A stretch of 64,000 nt of DNA from Escherichia coli (GTDB taxonomy: Bacteria; Pseudomonadota; Gammaproteobacteria; Enterobacterales; Enterobacteriaceae). Location of the stretch: assembly GCF_003991155.1 (NCBI RefSeq), contig NZ_CP031293.1, one strand, 5' to 3'. Below the pieces are notes generated by a model. The model ran no database searches and was not told the DNA's origin. It worked only from the letters and a program-made list of their open reading frames with translations. The stretch's first letter is position 1, and every line of letters starts with the position of its first letter. A program made the position numbers and the translations under genes. Below are positions 44,796 through 48,940 of this stretch, piece by piece.

Positions 44796-45095
44796 ATGAC
44801 AGTAGTCATTACATATCTAGCTGACGATAACGCCAGAAATCGCCGCAGAGCACGCAGGCAGGCTCAACGTGAACAGGCAATGCAAGAACAGCGACTGGCG
44901 CGAAAGATTGCGCTAAAGCTCTCTGGTTGCGTCAGAGCAGACAAAGCAGCATCACTCGGAAGCCTTCGCTGCAAGAAGGCAGAAGAAGTCGAGAGTAAAC
45001 AGAACCGTATTTACTACCGCAAGCCACGCAGTGAAATGGGTGTGACTTGTGTTGGTCGCCAGAAAATGAAATTAGGCAGCAAACCACTTATTTGA
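44796..45095 (+). CDS. N-like antitermination protein (P22 gene 24-like)
   Basis: 99 aa, arginine-rich motif NARNRRRARRQAQREQ. Confidence 0.7.
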   Translation: MTVVITYLADDNARNRRRARRQAQREQAMQEQRLARKIALKLSGCVRADKAASLGSLRCKKAEEVESKQNRIYYRKPRSEMGVTCVGRQKMKLGSKPLI

Positions 45096-45106
45096 GAGGA
45101 ATTAAT

Positions 45107-45730
45107 ATGTCATCAATCCGCTTAACTACGAGAATGAAAGAGAAAATCGCTCGTAACGCTTTAATTAAGTCTGGGGTTTTCACTGAACTTGAAGAAGTAA
45201 CAAAGTTAAAGAACCAGCTTGCACTTGACGCCAGAGTTATTGCGTTTGGCGGTAAAAAGAAAACTGAGGAAGTGGATCAGTTATCATCCAGGTTAGTAGC
45301 TATAAGTGAAGAACTTGAAAAGATGGGATGTTCATTTTACTCATACGATGTTCGTTCTACTTCAATTTATCTGACTGTATCTGGCAGAAGGGTTGGATGG
45401 CATTCATATGGGAAAGACGGCAACGGCGAAGATATATTGCTCCCTACTCCAACCAAAGATAAATGCATGTTTGATGCAGAACACGAAATAACAAAAAGGT
45501 TTGATGAAATCTGCGCATTGCAACAAAAACTTGAAGCCAAGAAAAAGGATATCGAATCAAATGTATGGGCTGCTTTGAACTCAGTCACAACAGTTAAGCG
45601 ACTTATTGAAGTTTGGCCTGAAAGCAAAGAATTGCTACCAAAAGAAGCAGACAAAGCAAGTACAGCACTTCCTGCTTTACGGGTAGAAGATTTGAATAAG
45701 ATGATTGGACTTCCTTCCGAGTCCGCATAG
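45107..45730 (+). CDS. Hypothetical early-left protein
   Basis: 207 aa from ATG with GAGAGGA RBS; soluble, no recognised motif. Confidence 0.45.
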   Translation: MSSIRLTTRMKEKIARNALIKSGVFTELEEVTKLKNQLALDARVIAFGGKKKTEEVDQLSSRLVAISEELEKMGCSFYSYDVRSTSIYLTVSGRRVGWHSYGKDGNGEDILLPTPTKDKCMFDAEHEITKRFDEICALQQKLEAKKKDIESNVWAALNSVTTVKRLIEVWPESKELLPKEADKASTALPALRVEDLNKMIGLPSESA

Positions 45731-45903
45731 TCGGCCTTTATTTTTGGCACTAACAACAGAATAAACACTGCACTGTGTATTCATTCCAACGAGTGAATAC
45801 ACGGAGCAATGTCGCTCTTAACTAAACAGGAGCCGACTTGTTCTGATTATTGGAAATCTTCTTTGCCCTCCAGTGTGAGGGCGATTTTTTTGATGGAGGA
45901 TAT

Positions 45904-46872
45904 ATGAGTGAAGTAACAGATTTAGTTGTTATTGAAAAAGCAAATGCAATGACTGTATTTCAGTCTGCCGACCAGATTGAAGAAATCCTTCAAAGGGTTG
46001 AACGTGAAGTTATGTCCTTTGTGCCTGATATCACAACGGCAAAGGGCAGAAAGGAGATCGCTTCTCTGGCGTATAAAGTTGCGCAGACGAAAACATATCT
46101 CGATGGTCTTGGCAAAGACCTTGTTGCTGAACTGAAGGAAATTCCAAAGCTAATTGATGCCAACCGCAAGACAGTGCGCGATCGCCTTGATGAGCTGAAA
46201 GCCAAGGCACGCCAGCCTCTTACTGATTATGAGGAAGAACAGGCGCGGATTAAAGCCGAAGAAGAAGCTAAGGCAGCAGCTGAAGCTCTCGCAAAGCAAA
46301 TTGAGTCTGACCATGAAATAGCTATTTTGATGGATCGCGAATTTGACCGCCAAAGAGAAGAGGCAAGACTCAAAGCGGAGCAGGAAAAGCGAGAGCATGA
46401 AGAACGCTTAAAAAGAGAAGCTGAAGAGAAAGCCAGAGCAGAAGCCGAAGCAAAGGCAAAAGCCGAAATTGAAGCAGCAGCAAGGCGAGAAGCAGAAGCT
46501 AAGGCCGCAGCGGAACGTGCAGAGCGTGAACGCATTGAAGCCGAGCAACGAGCACAGCGCGAAGCAAAAGAGGCAGCAGAACGAGCTGAAAGAGAAAAGC
46601 AGGCGGCAATTGAAGCAGAACGCCGAAAAGCACAGGAGGAGGCTGAACGAATCCGGCGCGAGGCTGAAGCAAAAGAGCAAGCCAGAATAGCAGAAGAAAA
46701 AAGAATCAAGGACGAAGAAGAGCGTAGAGCAAAGGATAAAGCTCACCGGAAAGAAGTAAATAACAAAATACTTGCTGACCTTATCAAGGTTGGCGCATCA
46801 GAAGATGTTGCTAAAAATATCATAACAGCCATCGTAAAAGGCGAAGTATTCGCAACAAAAATAACCTACTAA
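45904..46872 (+). CDS. Coiled-coil protein with TolA domain-II-like Ala/Glu/Lys/Arg repeats
   Basis: 322 aa from ATG with GGAGGA RBS; ~180-aa low-complexity tract. Confidence 0.5.
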   Translation: MSEVTDLVVIEKANAMTVFQSADQIEEILQRVEREVMSFVPDITTAKGRKEIASLAYKVAQTKTYLDGLGKDLVAELKEIPKLIDANRKTVRDRLDELKAKARQPLTDYEEEQARIKAEEEAKAAAEALAKQIESDHEIAILMDREFDRQREEARLKAEQEKREHEERLKREAEEKARAEAEAKAKAEIEAAARREAEAKAAAERAERERIEAEQRAQREAKEAAERAEREKQAAIEAERRKAQEEAERIRREAEAKEQARIAEEKRIKDEEERRAKDKAHRKEVNNKILADLIKVGASEDVAKNIITAIVKGEVFATKITY

Positions 46873-46895: not shown

Positions 46896-47027
46896 ATGAT
46901 TTACGCAATCGCGGGAGGCGCTCGCATGGGTGCCTTCCAACTAAATGAATCTTTACTTGAACGAATCACCCGTAAATTACGTGACGGATGGAAAAGAGTT
47001 GAGGTCTTATTATGCGCAATGAAATAG
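46896..47027 (+). CDS. cIII: CIII-like protease inhibitor
   Basis: 43 aa, ESLLERITRKLRDGWKR core like lambda CIII. Confidence 0.65.
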   Translation: MIYAIAGGARMGAFQLNESLLERITRKLRDGWKRVEVLLCAMK

Positions 47028-47164
47028 CCATCAATCACCAGATGCTTCGTGCTGCACAGAACAAAGCAGTAATAGCCAGATTTATTGGTGATTCAAAAAT
47101 GTGGCTTGAAGCAAATAAAGCAATGAAATCAGCTATCAACCTTCCGTGGTATCGCAGGAAATGA
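47012..47164 (+). CDS. kil: Kil-like host division inhibitor
   Basis: 50 aa, ARFIGDSKMWLEA resembles lambda Kil motif. Confidence 0.55.
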   Translation: MRNEIAINHQMLRAAQNKAVIARFIGDSKMWLEANKAMKSAINLPWYRRK

Positions 47165-47331
47165 GTTTTACAGATAACTGGTCAGACGAAGAATTCATTC
47201 GTCAGATGAAAGAATTAGTCGGTAACGAAGGAGATATGCATGTCACTTGCAACCACAGTGAAGGAGAGCAAGTTACAGAGACGCATGTACACGCAGCAGG
47301 CGTTAATGTATCGCCAGAAGGGAGATCGTGA
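47161..47331 (+). CDS. Small hypothetical protein, ATGA-coupled to kil
   Basis: 56 aa from MSFTDNW; overlaps alternative ORF 47240-47410 in another frame. Confidence 0.3.
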   Translation: MSFTDNWSDEEFIRQMKELVGNEGDMHVTCNHSEGEQVTETHVHAAGVNVSPEGRS

Positions 47332-47410
47332 AGGTGTTCGCGTATTTTTAAATGCGGCAAAGACTGAAGTATTAAATCAGCGTTATTTCCTTGGGCCGTG
47401 TCCATTCTGA
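47240..47410 (+). CDS. Small hypothetical protein immediately upstream of annealing protein gene
   Basis: 56 aa from MSLATTVKES, AAGGAG RBS, stop 9 nt before next ATG. Confidence 0.3.
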   Translation: MSLATTVKESKLQRRMYTQQALMYRQKGDREGVRVFLNAAKTEVLNQRYFLGPCPF

Positions 47411-47418
47411 GGTGAATT

Positions 47419-48126
47419 ATGGATTTGAACAAATTCGATGAACCATTCAGCCCTGAAGATATCGAATGGCGAATACAGCAAAGCGGTAAAACACGCGATG
47501 GCAAGGTGTGGGCTATGGTGCTGGCTTATGTCACGAACCGGGCAATCATGAAACGCCTGGACGATGTTTGCGGCAAAGCAGGATGGCGCAATGAATACCG
47601 CGATATTCCCAACAACGGCGGAGTTGAATGCGGCATATCAATCAAGATTGATTCCGAATGGGTAACCAAATGGGATGCTGCTGAAAACACGCAGGTAGAA
47701 GCCGTCAAAGGTGGTCGTTCCGGTGCAATGAAGCGTGCTGCCGTTCAATGGGGAATCGGTCGGTATCTGTATAACCTTGAGGAAGGTTTCGCACAAACAT
47801 CTCTCGATAAAAAGCAGGGATGGCACAGGGCAAAACTGAAGGATGGAACAGGATTTTACTGGCTCCCTCCATCGCTGCCGGGATGGGCAATCCCAGCATC
47901 AGATAACAAACCATCACCAGAAAATACCAACCAGAAATCTCCATCGGTTGACTGCGAACAAATCCTGAAAGACTTCAGCGATTATGCATCAACAGAAACT
48001 GACAAGAAAAAACTCATCGAGCGTTATCAGCGTGACTGGCAATTAATGGCTGGCAACGAGGAGGCGCAGGCTAAATGCGTTCAGGTAATGAACATCAGAG
48101 TTAACGAACTAAAACAGGCGGCATAA
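47419..48126 (+). CDS. Rad52-family single-strand annealing protein
   Basis: 235 aa; AAVQWGIGRYLY motif. Confidence 0.65.
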   Translation: MDLNKFDEPFSPEDIEWRIQQSGKTRDGKVWAMVLAYVTNRAIMKRLDDVCGKAGWRNEYRDIPNNGGVECGISIKIDSEWVTKWDAAENTQVEAVKGGRSGAMKRAAVQWGIGRYLYNLEEGFAQTSLDKKQGWHRAKLKDGTGFYWLPPSLPGWAIPASDNKPSPENTNQKSPSVDCEQILKDFSDYASTETDKKKLIERYQRDWQLMAGNEEAQAKCVQVMNIRVNELKQAA

Positions 48127-48633
48127 ATGGCAAGCAGAGGCGTAAATAAGGTGATTATCCTTGGTCGGGTAGGACAAGACCCGGAAGTTCGATACTCACC
48201 ATCAGGAACAGCGTTCGCTAACCTGACAATAGCCACGTCAGAACAATGGCGAGATAAAAATACTGGCGAGCAAAAGGAATTAACTGAATGGCATCGTGTT
48301 GCTGTATCCGGGAAACTGGCTGAGGTCGTGGGGCAGTATGTGAAAAAAGGTGATCAGATTTATTTCGAGGGAATGCTGAGAACCAGAAAGTGGAAAGACC
48401 AGTCAGGGCAAGACCGTTACACAACCGAGGTTCATGTCGGAATTAATGGCGTGATGCAAATGCTTGGCGGCATTGGCGACAGCAAACAACAAGCAGCCAG
48501 CAGGCAATCACAGAAGCCACAGCAGCAATCATCACCAGCACAACACAACGAACCTCCGATGGATTTTGACGACGATATACCCTTTGCACCAGTAACTCTC
48601 CCCTTCCCTCGTCACGCTATTCACGCAATTTAA
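48127..48633 (+). CDS. ssb: Single-stranded DNA-binding protein
   Basis: 168 aa; OB-fold N-domain, Gln-rich linker, acidic DFDDDIPF tail. Confidence 0.9.
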
Positions 48634-48646
48634 TCAGGAGAAAATC

Positions 48647-48940
48647 ATGCCAGCGCCTCTGTATGGTGCGGATGACCCGCGCCGCTGTTCCGGCAATTCC
48701 GTATCGGAGGTGCTGGATAAATTCAGGAAAAACTACGACCTGATAATGTCGCTACCGCAGGAAACGAAAGAGGAAAAGGAATTTCGCCATTGTATATGGC
48801 TTGCAGAGAAAGAAGAACGCGAGCGAATTTACCAGACATCAATCCGACCATTCCGCAAAGCCACATATACCCACTTCCCTGAAATTGACCCGCGCCTGCG
48901 TAATTACCGCTCACGCTATGGCGCTATCAGTAATGACTGA
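48647..48940 (+). CDS. Hypothetical protein
   Basis: 97 aa ORF in early-left operon. Confidence 0.4.

What the first reader, a model, noticed from the sequence alone, without database searches (positions are those of the whole stretch)
47161..47410. Two overlapping candidate small genes between kil and the annealing-protein gene
One 56-aa ORF is ATGA-coupled to the kil stop. A second 56-aa ORF in another frame has a strong AAGGAG RBS and ends 9 nt before the Rad52-like gene's ATG. They overlap by about 90 nt. Either one is spurious or this is a genuine overlapping-gene pair, and sequence alone cannot decide.
Basis: seen in the sequence. Interest (0 to 1): 0.35.

Follow-up and report, generated by a model that had tools for sequence, protein, structure and literature searches.

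The report
Two small overlapping lambdoid prophage genes
Both small reading frames between kil and the Rad52-like recombinase gene are real, already annotated phage genes, but the part where they overlap is shaped only by the second gene, so this is an ordinary feature of lambdoid prophages.

Summary
ORF1 (47161-47331, 56 aa) starts on the kil stop (ATGA). ORF2 (47240-47410, 56 aa) has an AAGGAG site 6 nt upstream and ends 8 nt before the Rad52-like gene. They overlap by 92 nt.

Both ORFs are already annotated in phages: Sf6 genes 30 and 29, HK97 gp42.1 and gp42, PHROGs 2123 and 1723.

ORF2 is a conserved 56-aa basic helical hairpin under strong purifying selection (dN/dS about 0.06-0.3). It occurs with or without ORF1. 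It always sits 7-10 nt upstream of the first gene of a recombination module (Erf, Rad52-like or Sak4-like).

ORF1 is also coding, but only its first 20-26 residues are conserved (M-S-x-x-D-x-W-S/T-D-E/D-x-F-I-R, an acidic helix). Between the two most diverged copies there are 11 synonymous and 3 nonsynonymous differences. The start overlaps the upstream stop behind four different upstream genes.

Inside the overlap, 8 of 9 polymorphisms are silent in ORF2 but change or truncate ORF1, and the ORF1-frame dN/dS is 1.4-6. The ORF1 tail is therefore unconstrained read-through.

ORF1 resembles P22 Arf in position, charge and a short motif, but homology is not demonstrable. The functions of both proteins remain unknown.

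The parts
46896..47027 (+). cIII (FtsH-inhibitor) gene; context, the first gene of the run of coupled small genes
   Evidence: Pfam Lambda_CIII E=4e-15. PGAP and phage annotations agree.
47012..47164 (+). kil (cell-division inhibitor) gene. Its TGA stop (47162-47164) overlaps the ORF1 ATG.
   Evidence: Pfam Lambda_Kil E=1.7e-20 and phrog_2055. Sequence read.
47161..47331 (+). ORF1, 56 aa, acidic (11 D/E, 3 K/R). It belongs to phrog_2123 and corresponds to Sf6 gene 30 and the N-terminus of HK97 gp42.1.
   Evidence: phrog_2123 E=4e-39. Annotated in Sf6 and mEp235. The stop-start overlap (ATGA/GTGA) is conserved behind 4 different upstream genes.
47161..47239 (+). ORF1-only segment (codons 1-26). 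This is the conserved, selected part, MSFTDNWSDEEFIRQMKELV..., with a predicted helix at residues 9-20.
   Evidence: 9 of 21 polymorphic sites are synonymous against 19% expected (p=0.011). L315 vs L314 differ by 11 synonymous and 3 nonsynonymous changes, pN/pS 0.07, whereas the other two frames give >1. AF2 predicts a helix at 9-20 and disorder elsewhere.
47228..47233 (+). AAGGAG Shine-Dalgarno site for ORF2, lying inside ORF1 codons 23-25
   Evidence: Read directly from the sequence. 6-nt spacer to the ATG at 47240.
47240..47331 (+). The 92-nt overlap. It is constrained in the ORF2 frame only; the ORF1 tail (residues 27-56) is unconstrained.
   Evidence: 8 of 9 polymorphisms are ORF2-synonymous (p=5e-5). 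In ORF1 they are 7 missense, 1 nonsense (Q37*) and 1 silent. pN/pS is 0.19-0.5 in the ORF2 frame and 1.4-6 in the ORF1 frame.
47240..47410 (+). ORF2, 56 aa, basic (10 K/R, 4 D/E), predicted helical hairpin. It belongs to phrog_1723 and corresponds to Sf6 gene 29, HK97 gp42 and WP_000050554.1.
   Evidence: phrog_1723 E=4.5e-34. The PGAP annotation includes it. 56-aa homologues at 48-70% identity occur without ORF1. dN/dS is 0.06-0.3. AF2 pLDDT 89.6 with helices 7-27 and 30-51.
47419..48126 (+). Rad52/Rad22-family single-strand annealing protein gene, the first gene of the recombination module; followed by ssb (48127..48633) and abc2 (48647..48940)
   Evidence: Pfam Rad52_Rad22 E=5e-26, SSB E=1.6e-36, Anti-RecBCD_p2 E=6e-65.

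Best explanation
These are two separate, genuine small accessory genes of the lambdoid early-left (PL) operon, sitting at the junction between cIII-kil and the recombination module.

ORF2 is a self-contained 56-aa basic helical-hairpin protein with its own strong ribosome-binding site. Across phages it always lies immediately upstream of whichever recombinase gene heads the module.

ORF1 is an optional mosaic insert. Its functional part is an acidic N-terminal peptide of about 20-26 residues containing one amphipathic helix. It has no usable Shine-Dalgarno site, so it is most likely translated by termination-reinitiation from the upstream gene (inferred). Its ribosomes then read on, out of frame, into ORF2 until the first stop. 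That stop is created by the conserved ORF2 turn motif (xxT GAx), so the 30-residue tail and the 92-nt overlap are by-products rather than a dual-coding design.

The coding status, the selection pattern and the synteny are shown here. The coupling mechanism is inferred, as is any role in recombination (ORF1 acting like P22 Arf, ORF2 as a partner of the recombinase or SSB).
For: ORF2 is real:
- Homologues of exactly 56 aa at 48-82% identity occur in Sf6, Salmonella phage S9-5, Erwinia phage 59 and metagenomic contigs.
- Synonymous sites are saturated (pS 0.8-0.95) while pN is 0.12-0.45.
- 11 of 15 polymorphisms in the ORF2-only part are synonymous (p=2e-4).

ORF2 is independent of ORF1:
- S9-5, Erwinia 59, L012, L013-L015 and most of the 58 SPN9CC-type loci have ORF2 with no ORF1.

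ORF1 N-terminus is coding:
- Polymorphisms show third-codon-position periodicity in the ORF1 frame.
- The L315/L314 pair has 11 synonymous vs 3 nonsynonymous differences in codons 2-20, with pN/pS >1 in the other two frames.
- The start overlaps the upstream stop behind kil, a cIII-like gene and two other upstream contexts; in L314 the GTG of the GTGA overlap is the only possible start.
- The same N-terminus heads a 35-aa ORF in SEN22/HK140-type phages, upstream of an unrelated gene.

ORF1 tail is unconstrained:
- The tail gives ORF1 lengths of 35, 52, 53, 54, 56 or 60 aa, and AF2 predicts it as disordered.

Synteny:
- The ORF2 stop lies 7-10 nt before Erf-type, Rad52-type, Sak4/AAA_24-type or other first genes in 221 of 223 scored loci; the 2 loci scored at 1 nt used an upstream GTG.
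Against: There is no direct expression evidence (Ribo-seq, proteomics or tagging) for either product.

The polymorphism test for the ORF1-only part is only moderately significant (p about 0.01-0.03, depending on the transition/transversion weighting). The strongest divergence test rests on a few short pairs of 19 codons.

The first 30 nt of ORF1 are nearly identical at the DNA level in many phages. This could partly reflect recent recombination at a mosaic boundary rather than protein-level selection.

PGAP often does not call ORF1.

The link to recombination is purely positional. Fold searches gave nothing, and homology to Arf is not significant.
Confidence: 0.8

Rival explanations
1. Only ORF2 is a gene. 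ORF1 is a chance open frame, and its conserved 5' end is a nucleotide-level mosaic boundary sequence rather than a coding sequence.
For: The ORF1 frame is open by chance in ORF2-only loci. PGAP omits ORF1. The first 30 nt are identical in many lineages. A nonsense variant exists. Mosaic breakpoints fall at and inside ORF1.
Against: Synonymous changes are enriched and show three-base periodicity in the ORF1 frame only. Diverged copies (L314, L315, L280) keep W-S/T-D-E/D-x-F-I-R while synonymous sites are saturated. The start-stop overlap is preserved behind four different upstream genes.
Confidence: 0.1
2. This is a true dual-coding overlap: both proteins need their full 56 residues, and both frames are selected within the 92 nt.
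For: ORF1 is 52-60 aa in five diverged ORF2-linked lineages, and its stop always falls near ORF2 codons 26-31.
Against: In the overlap the ORF1 frame has pN/pS of 1.4-6, and 8 of 9 polymorphisms are missense or nonsense. The position of the stop is explained by the conserved ORF2 G-D-R-E/N turn, which creates T-GA. A 35-aa form exists. AF2 predicts the tail as disordered.
Confidence: 0.05
3. ORF1 and ORF2 are two parts of one gene, joined by programmed +1 frameshifting or split by a mutation. The real product would be an 82-83-aa fusion such as HK97 gp42.1.
For: In HK97, gp42.1 (83 aa) is ORF1(1-43) fused in frame to ORF2(19-56). 82-aa fusions are present in databases, one of them on 36 contigs.
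Against: The fusion junctions differ from case to case and arise from 1-2-nt indels. Most are singletons. 160 of 161 full-length IMG/VR and phage loci keep the two frames separate. ORF2 has its own strong SD and ATG and exists alone in other phages. No conserved slippery motif was seen among window, Sf6, L314 and L315.
Confidence: 0.03
4. ORF1 acts in cis. Its translation is a coupling device that carries ribosomes from kil across the ORF2 start and tunes expression of ORF2 and the recombinase. The peptide itself would be irrelevant.
For: There is ATGA coupling and no SD for ORF1. The ORF2 SD lies inside ORF1. The tail is unconstrained.
Against: The amino-acid sequence of residues 1-20 is under purifying selection, which a purely cis-acting role does not require. 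Many phages couple kil directly to ORF2 without ORF1. There is no unusual RNA structure (z = -0.57).
Confidence: 0.1

Closest known systems
Shigella phage Sf6 genes 30 and 29; HK97 gp42.1 and gp42 (PHROGs phrog_2123 and phrog_1723)
   Same: These are the same genes. The position between kil and the SSAP gene is identical, the overlap geometry is the same, and amino-acid identity is 82-100%. Both window ORFs match the PHROG profiles over their full length.
   Different: The Sf6 ORF1 ends 4 codons earlier (52 aa). In HK97 a 2-nt insertion fuses the two frames. None of these has an experimentally defined function. The PHROG label 'recombinase' carried by RefSeq records is not credible for 52-58-aa proteins.
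Phage P22 Arf (accessory recombination function; Pfam PF17585, phrog_2445)
   Same: Arf occupies the same slot: immediately after kil with an overlapping start, and upstream of the annealing-protein gene. It is small and strongly acidic, like ORF1. It shares a [FW]SDEEFI motif at residues 5-13. Arf aids Erf recombination by an unknown mechanism and has been suggested to be a DNA mimic (PMC12315714, PMC9836394).
   Different: Homology is not statistically supported. There is no Pfam hit. phrog_2445 gives E=0.04-0.1. hhalign gives probability 4% over 16 columns. An exhaustive profile search of 1.84 billion proteins retrieved no Arf. The conserved part of Arf is its C-terminal half, which has no counterpart in ORF1, and P22 has no ORF2.
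Short stop-start coupled gene strings of lambdoid PL operons (cIII-kil and similar)
   Same: The small ORFs are linked by ATGA or short overlaps and exchanged as mosaic modules with junctions at gene boundaries.
   Different: Here the overlap is 92 nt rather than 1-16 nt, because ORF1 lacks a stop before the ORF2 start.

Membership tests
phrog_2123 (Sf6 gp30 / HK97 gp42.1 N-terminal family) | Full-length profile match | tested here: met
   hmmscan E=4.3e-39, residues 1-52 against profile positions 1-52 of 52. 88-96% identity to annotated phage proteins.
phrog_1723 (Sf6 gp29 / HK97 gp42 family) | Full-length profile match, with the conserved C-terminal motif LNQRYFLGxxPF | tested here: met
   hmmscan E=4.5e-34, residues 1-56. 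The motif is invariant or nearly so in the A2 alignment. The SPN9CC 62-aa and Erwinia homologues hit the same PHROG.
P22 Arf (Pfam PF17585 Phage_Arf / phrog_2445) | Significant sequence match to the family profile | tested here: not met
   No Pfam hit at E<=0.1. phrog_2445 E=0.099, 0.062 and 0.04 for three ORF1 variants. hhalign probability 4.4%. No Arf among the 28 hits of the exhaustive HMMER profile search.
P22 Arf (Pfam PF17585 Phage_Arf / phrog_2445) | Genomic position: directly downstream of kil with an overlapping start, upstream of the annealing-protein gene | tested here: met
   In P22 the arf coordinates overlap the end of kil and the start of erf. ORF1 overlaps the kil stop and lies upstream of the Rad52-like gene, although ORF2 intervenes.
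P22 Arf (Pfam PF17585 Phage_Arf / phrog_2445) | Stimulates phage annealing-protein-dependent recombination | not testable with these tools
   This needs genetics: recombination frequency or growth phenotype of an ORF1 knockout.
Dual-coding (both frames selected) overlapping gene pair | Purifying selection in both reading frames within the overlap | tested here: not met
   In the overlap the ORF2 frame gives pN/pS 0.19-0.5 and the ORF1 frame 1.4-6. 8 of 9 polymorphisms are ORF2-silent and alter ORF1, including one nonsense change.
Programmed ribosomal frameshift gene | Conserved slippery site, and a fusion as the normal product | tested here: not met
   No shift motif is shared among window, Sf6, L314 and L315. 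The fusion junctions in databases are heterogeneous indels. No product data are available.

The most novel reading that the evidence does not exclude
ORF1 (an acidic WSDEEFI helix, an Arf-like analogue) and ORF2 (a basic helical hairpin) could form a portable two-part accessory unit. It would work with unrelated recombinases (Erf, Rad52-like, Sak4), for example by acting on a shared partner such as SSB, RecBCD or ssDNA. That would explain why ORF2 is always fixed 7-10 nt upstream of whichever recombinase heads the module. It would also explain why in-frame ORF1-ORF2 fusions such as HK97 gp42.1 are tolerated.
Probability: 0.15. Interest if true: 0.5.

Novelty: already known. Interest (0 to 1): 0.2.

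Why it matters
The practical value is for annotation. ORF2 should always be called. ORF1 should be called as a short gene whose meaningful part is the N-terminal 20-26 residues. The inherited label 'recombinase' for both families should be dropped. The case is also a clean example of a long same-strand overlap that is not dual-coding, which is a useful caution when open overlapping frames are taken as evidence of overlapping genes. If the positional link to recombination modules reflects function, these two tiny proteins, together with the still-unexplained P22 Arf, would be candidates for general cofactors of phage single-strand annealing systems. That could matter for recombineering tools.

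Tried and rejected
- Frame openness as evidence for ORF1: rejected. Three of five ORF2-only loci have the same frame open for 44-50 codons with no start, and the tail frame stays open in SPN9CC-type loci that lack ORF1.
- Apparent conservation of ORF1 length and stop position: explained by the ORF2 conserved turn (GDR[EN]) generating T-GA, not by selection on ORF1.
- Homology of ORF1 to P22 Arf: tested by Pfam, PHROG, hhalign and an exhaustive HMMER profile search. Only a sub-significant 16-column motif match was found.
- Homology of ORF2 to Arf: none.
- Fold searches with the confident ORF2 model against PDB and BFVD: only generic helical hairpins, all with E>0.5. NCBIfam gave nothing meaningful.
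- RNA element: no Rfam hit at E<=1 and no unusual folding (z = -0.57). The single promoter-like and terminator-like matches are at chance level.
- prfB-like +1 shift at the ORF1 stop (AAGGGAG A TCG TGA A): considered, but the motif is absent in Sf6, L314 and L315, so it was rejected.
- Literature searches for gp42.1, hkaM and Arf found no functional study of either family.

Full report
**Observation.**
The region was read directly. The kil-like ORF runs 47012..47164. The ATG at 47161 overlaps its TGA as ATGA and opens a 56-aa frame ending at 47331 (ORF1). A second 56-aa frame (ORF2, 47240..47410) lies in the +1 frame. It is preceded by AAGGAG (47228-47233) with a 6-nt spacer and ends 8 nt before the ATG (47419) of the next gene. 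The overlap is 92 nt. Pfam confirms the neighbours: Lambda_CIII, Lambda_Kil, Rad52_Rad22, SSB and Anti-RecBCD_p2. This is the early-left operon of a lambdoid (Sf6/P22-like) prophage.

**Already annotated.**
The 541-bp stretch is 94-99% identical to many E. coli and Shigella phages and to prophages in about 2,200 complete E. coli genome records.
- Sf6 annotates both ORFs as gene 30 (52 aa) and gene 29 (56 aa), described as 'similar to HK97 gene 42.1 / 42'.
- mEp235 and others also annotate both.
- PGAP annotates only ORF2 in the closest E. coli chromosome.
- Both match PHROG profiles over their full length: phrog_2123 (E=4e-39) and phrog_1723 (E=4.5e-34).
- Mosaic breakpoints among E. coli prophages fall exactly at the ORF1 start (47161) and one base after the ORF2 stop (47411).

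**ORF2 is a real, independent gene.**
- Homologues of exactly 56 aa occur without any ORF1. In Salmonella phage S9-5 (70% identity) ORF2 is preceded by non-coding DNA. In Erwinia phage vB_EhrS_59 (48%) it is preceded by an unrelated gene. Three metagenomic lineages (63%) also lack ORF1.
- A 62-aa branch of the same PHROG exists in P22-like Salmonella phages (E=1.4e-31). In most of its 58 loci, kil is ATGA-coupled directly to it with no ORF1.
- Nei-Gojobori counts give saturated synonymous divergence (pS 0.8-0.95) with pN of 0.12-0.45, and dN/dS of 0.06-0.3 where it can be estimated.
- AlphaFold2 predicts a confident helical hairpin (pLDDT 89.6; helices 7-27 and 30-51). The protein is basic (10 K/R, 4 D/E).
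- Fold searches found only generic hairpins.
- In 221 of 223 scored loci, the ORF2-family stop lies 7-10 nt before the first gene of the recombination module; in the other 2 the scan picked an upstream GTG at 1 nt. That gene is Erf-type, Rad52-type, Sak4/AAA_24-type or another type.

**ORF1 is coding, but only its N-terminus is conserved.**
- Among 53 close haplotypes from IMG/VR, the ORF1-only segment (47161-47239) has 21 polymorphic sites. Twelve are at ORF1 third codon positions and 9 are synonymous, against 19% expected (p=0.011). The common variants are silent or conservative, and the rare ones are missense.
- Diverged copies give a stronger signal. In codons 2-20, L315 and L314 differ by 11 synonymous and 3 nonsynonymous changes (pN/pS 0.07). 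The same nucleotides read in the other two frames give pN/pS above 1. Window vs L314 gives 0.22.
- The conserved core is M-S-x-x-D-x-W-S/T-D-E/D-x-F-I-R-x-M, followed by hydrophobic residues at positions 19 and 20. AlphaFold2 predicts a single helix (residues 9-20) and a disordered remainder.
- The start overlaps the stop of the upstream gene (ATGA or GTGA) behind four different upstream contexts. In L314 that GTG is the only available start.
- There is no usable Shine-Dalgarno site: AGGA lies 1 nt from the ATG in the window, and nothing comparable is present in the other contexts. Translation by termination-reinitiation is therefore inferred.
- The same N-terminus heads a 35-36-aa ORF in SEN22/HK140-type phages, where it runs into an unrelated 103-aa gene upstream of a RecE-like nuclease.

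**The overlap is not dual-coding.**
- Nine sites are polymorphic within 47240-47331. Eight are ORF2 third-position silent changes (p=5e-5). In ORF1 the nine are seven missense, one nonsense (Q37*) and one silent.
- Between ORF1-bearing lineages, the overlap has pN/pS of 0.19-0.5 in the ORF2 frame and 1.4-6 in the ORF1 frame.
- The ORF1 tail differs between lineages, giving ORF1 lengths of 35, 52, 53, 54, 56 or 60 aa.
- Its stop always falls in the conserved ORF2 inter-helix turn (G-D-R-E/N), where an xxT GAx codon pair creates a TGA in the ORF1 frame.
- The frame is also open by chance in several ORF2-only loci. Openness and similar length are therefore not evidence of selection.

**Fusions.**
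- HK97 gp42.1 (83 aa) is ORF1(1-43) joined in frame to ORF2(19-56) by a 2-nt insertion.
- Databases hold several 82-aa fusions with different junctions. Most are singletons; one is on 36 contigs.
- Of 161 full-length loci collected here, only HK97 is fused.
- These look like indel mutations or sequencing errors, not programmed frameshifting.

**Function.**
Nothing is known experimentally for either family; literature searches were negative. P22 Arf sits in the same slot and is small and acidic like ORF1. It shares a [FW]SDEEFI motif. Arf aids Erf recombination by an unknown mechanism (PMC12315714) and has been suggested to be a DNA mimic (PMC9836394). Homology is not supported:
- Pfam PF17585 gives no hit.
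- phrog_2445 gives E=0.04-0.1.
- hhalign gives probability 4%.
- An exhaustive profile search returned 28 ORF1-family proteins and no Arf.

ORF1 may work like Arf, but it cannot be filed as a member of the Arf family. The invariant placement of ORF2 in front of unrelated recombinases suggests a recombination-related or operon-positional role, which remains untested.

**Other checks.**
No Rfam family matched, RNA folding was not unusual, and there were no above-chance promoter or terminator signals.

**Verdict.**
The feature is already annotated in well-known phages and is of low novelty.

Noticed in passing
L004 (HK97) 1201-1452; proteins P0031, P0014, P0022, P0043, P0047, P0051, P0065: In-frame ORF1-ORF2 fusion proteins of 76-83 aa, with different junctions. 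HK97 gp42.1 arises from a 2-nt insertion. P0031 is found on 36 contigs, so at least one fused allele circulates in E. coli.
   Followed up: partly
proteins P0004 and P0011 (ORF1 homologues in E. coli and Salmonella): The 21-nt segment encoding EFIRQMK is tandemly duplicated (x2) or triplicated (x3) inside the conserved ORF1 helix. The triplicated allele is on 7 Salmonella contigs.
   Followed up: no
RefSeq phage records such as NC_019719, NC_019720 and NC_005344: Both small ORFs carry the product name 'recombinase', inherited from PHROG labels for phrog_2123 and phrog_1723. Nothing supports this name for 52-58-aa proteins; it looks like annotation carried over from the neighbouring gene.
   Followed up: partly
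window 45047-45730 (+): A 227-aa protein with a full-length Pfam Nmad5 domain (nucleotide modification associated domain 5, E=5e-72). It lies in the early-left operon just downstream of an N-like antiterminator ORF (44796-45095), which it overlaps.
   Followed up: no
window 45850-46872 (+): A 340-aa ORF with a long, highly charged E/A/K/R-rich central region that looks like a coiled coil. It has no Pfam match and corresponds to Sf6 gene 33 ('similar to phage D3 Orf53').
   Followed up: no
proteins P0006, P0009, P0030, P0034, P0001: ORF1 homologues whose first 5-6 residues are replaced by unrelated N-terminal extensions. One is fused to the N-terminus of an N-antiterminator. This indicates recurrent deletion or recombination junctions at about ORF1 codon 6 (around window position 47176-47180), just upstream of the conserved WSDEEF core.
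   Followed up: no
L190/L182 about 880-1190; L006 (SEN22) 1286-1597: In SEN22/HK140-type phages the short ORF1 (35-36 aa) is followed by a 103-aa protein of phrog_3486 (unknown function) and then a RecE-like exonuclease. This is another small gene fixed at the head of a different recombination module.
   Followed up: no
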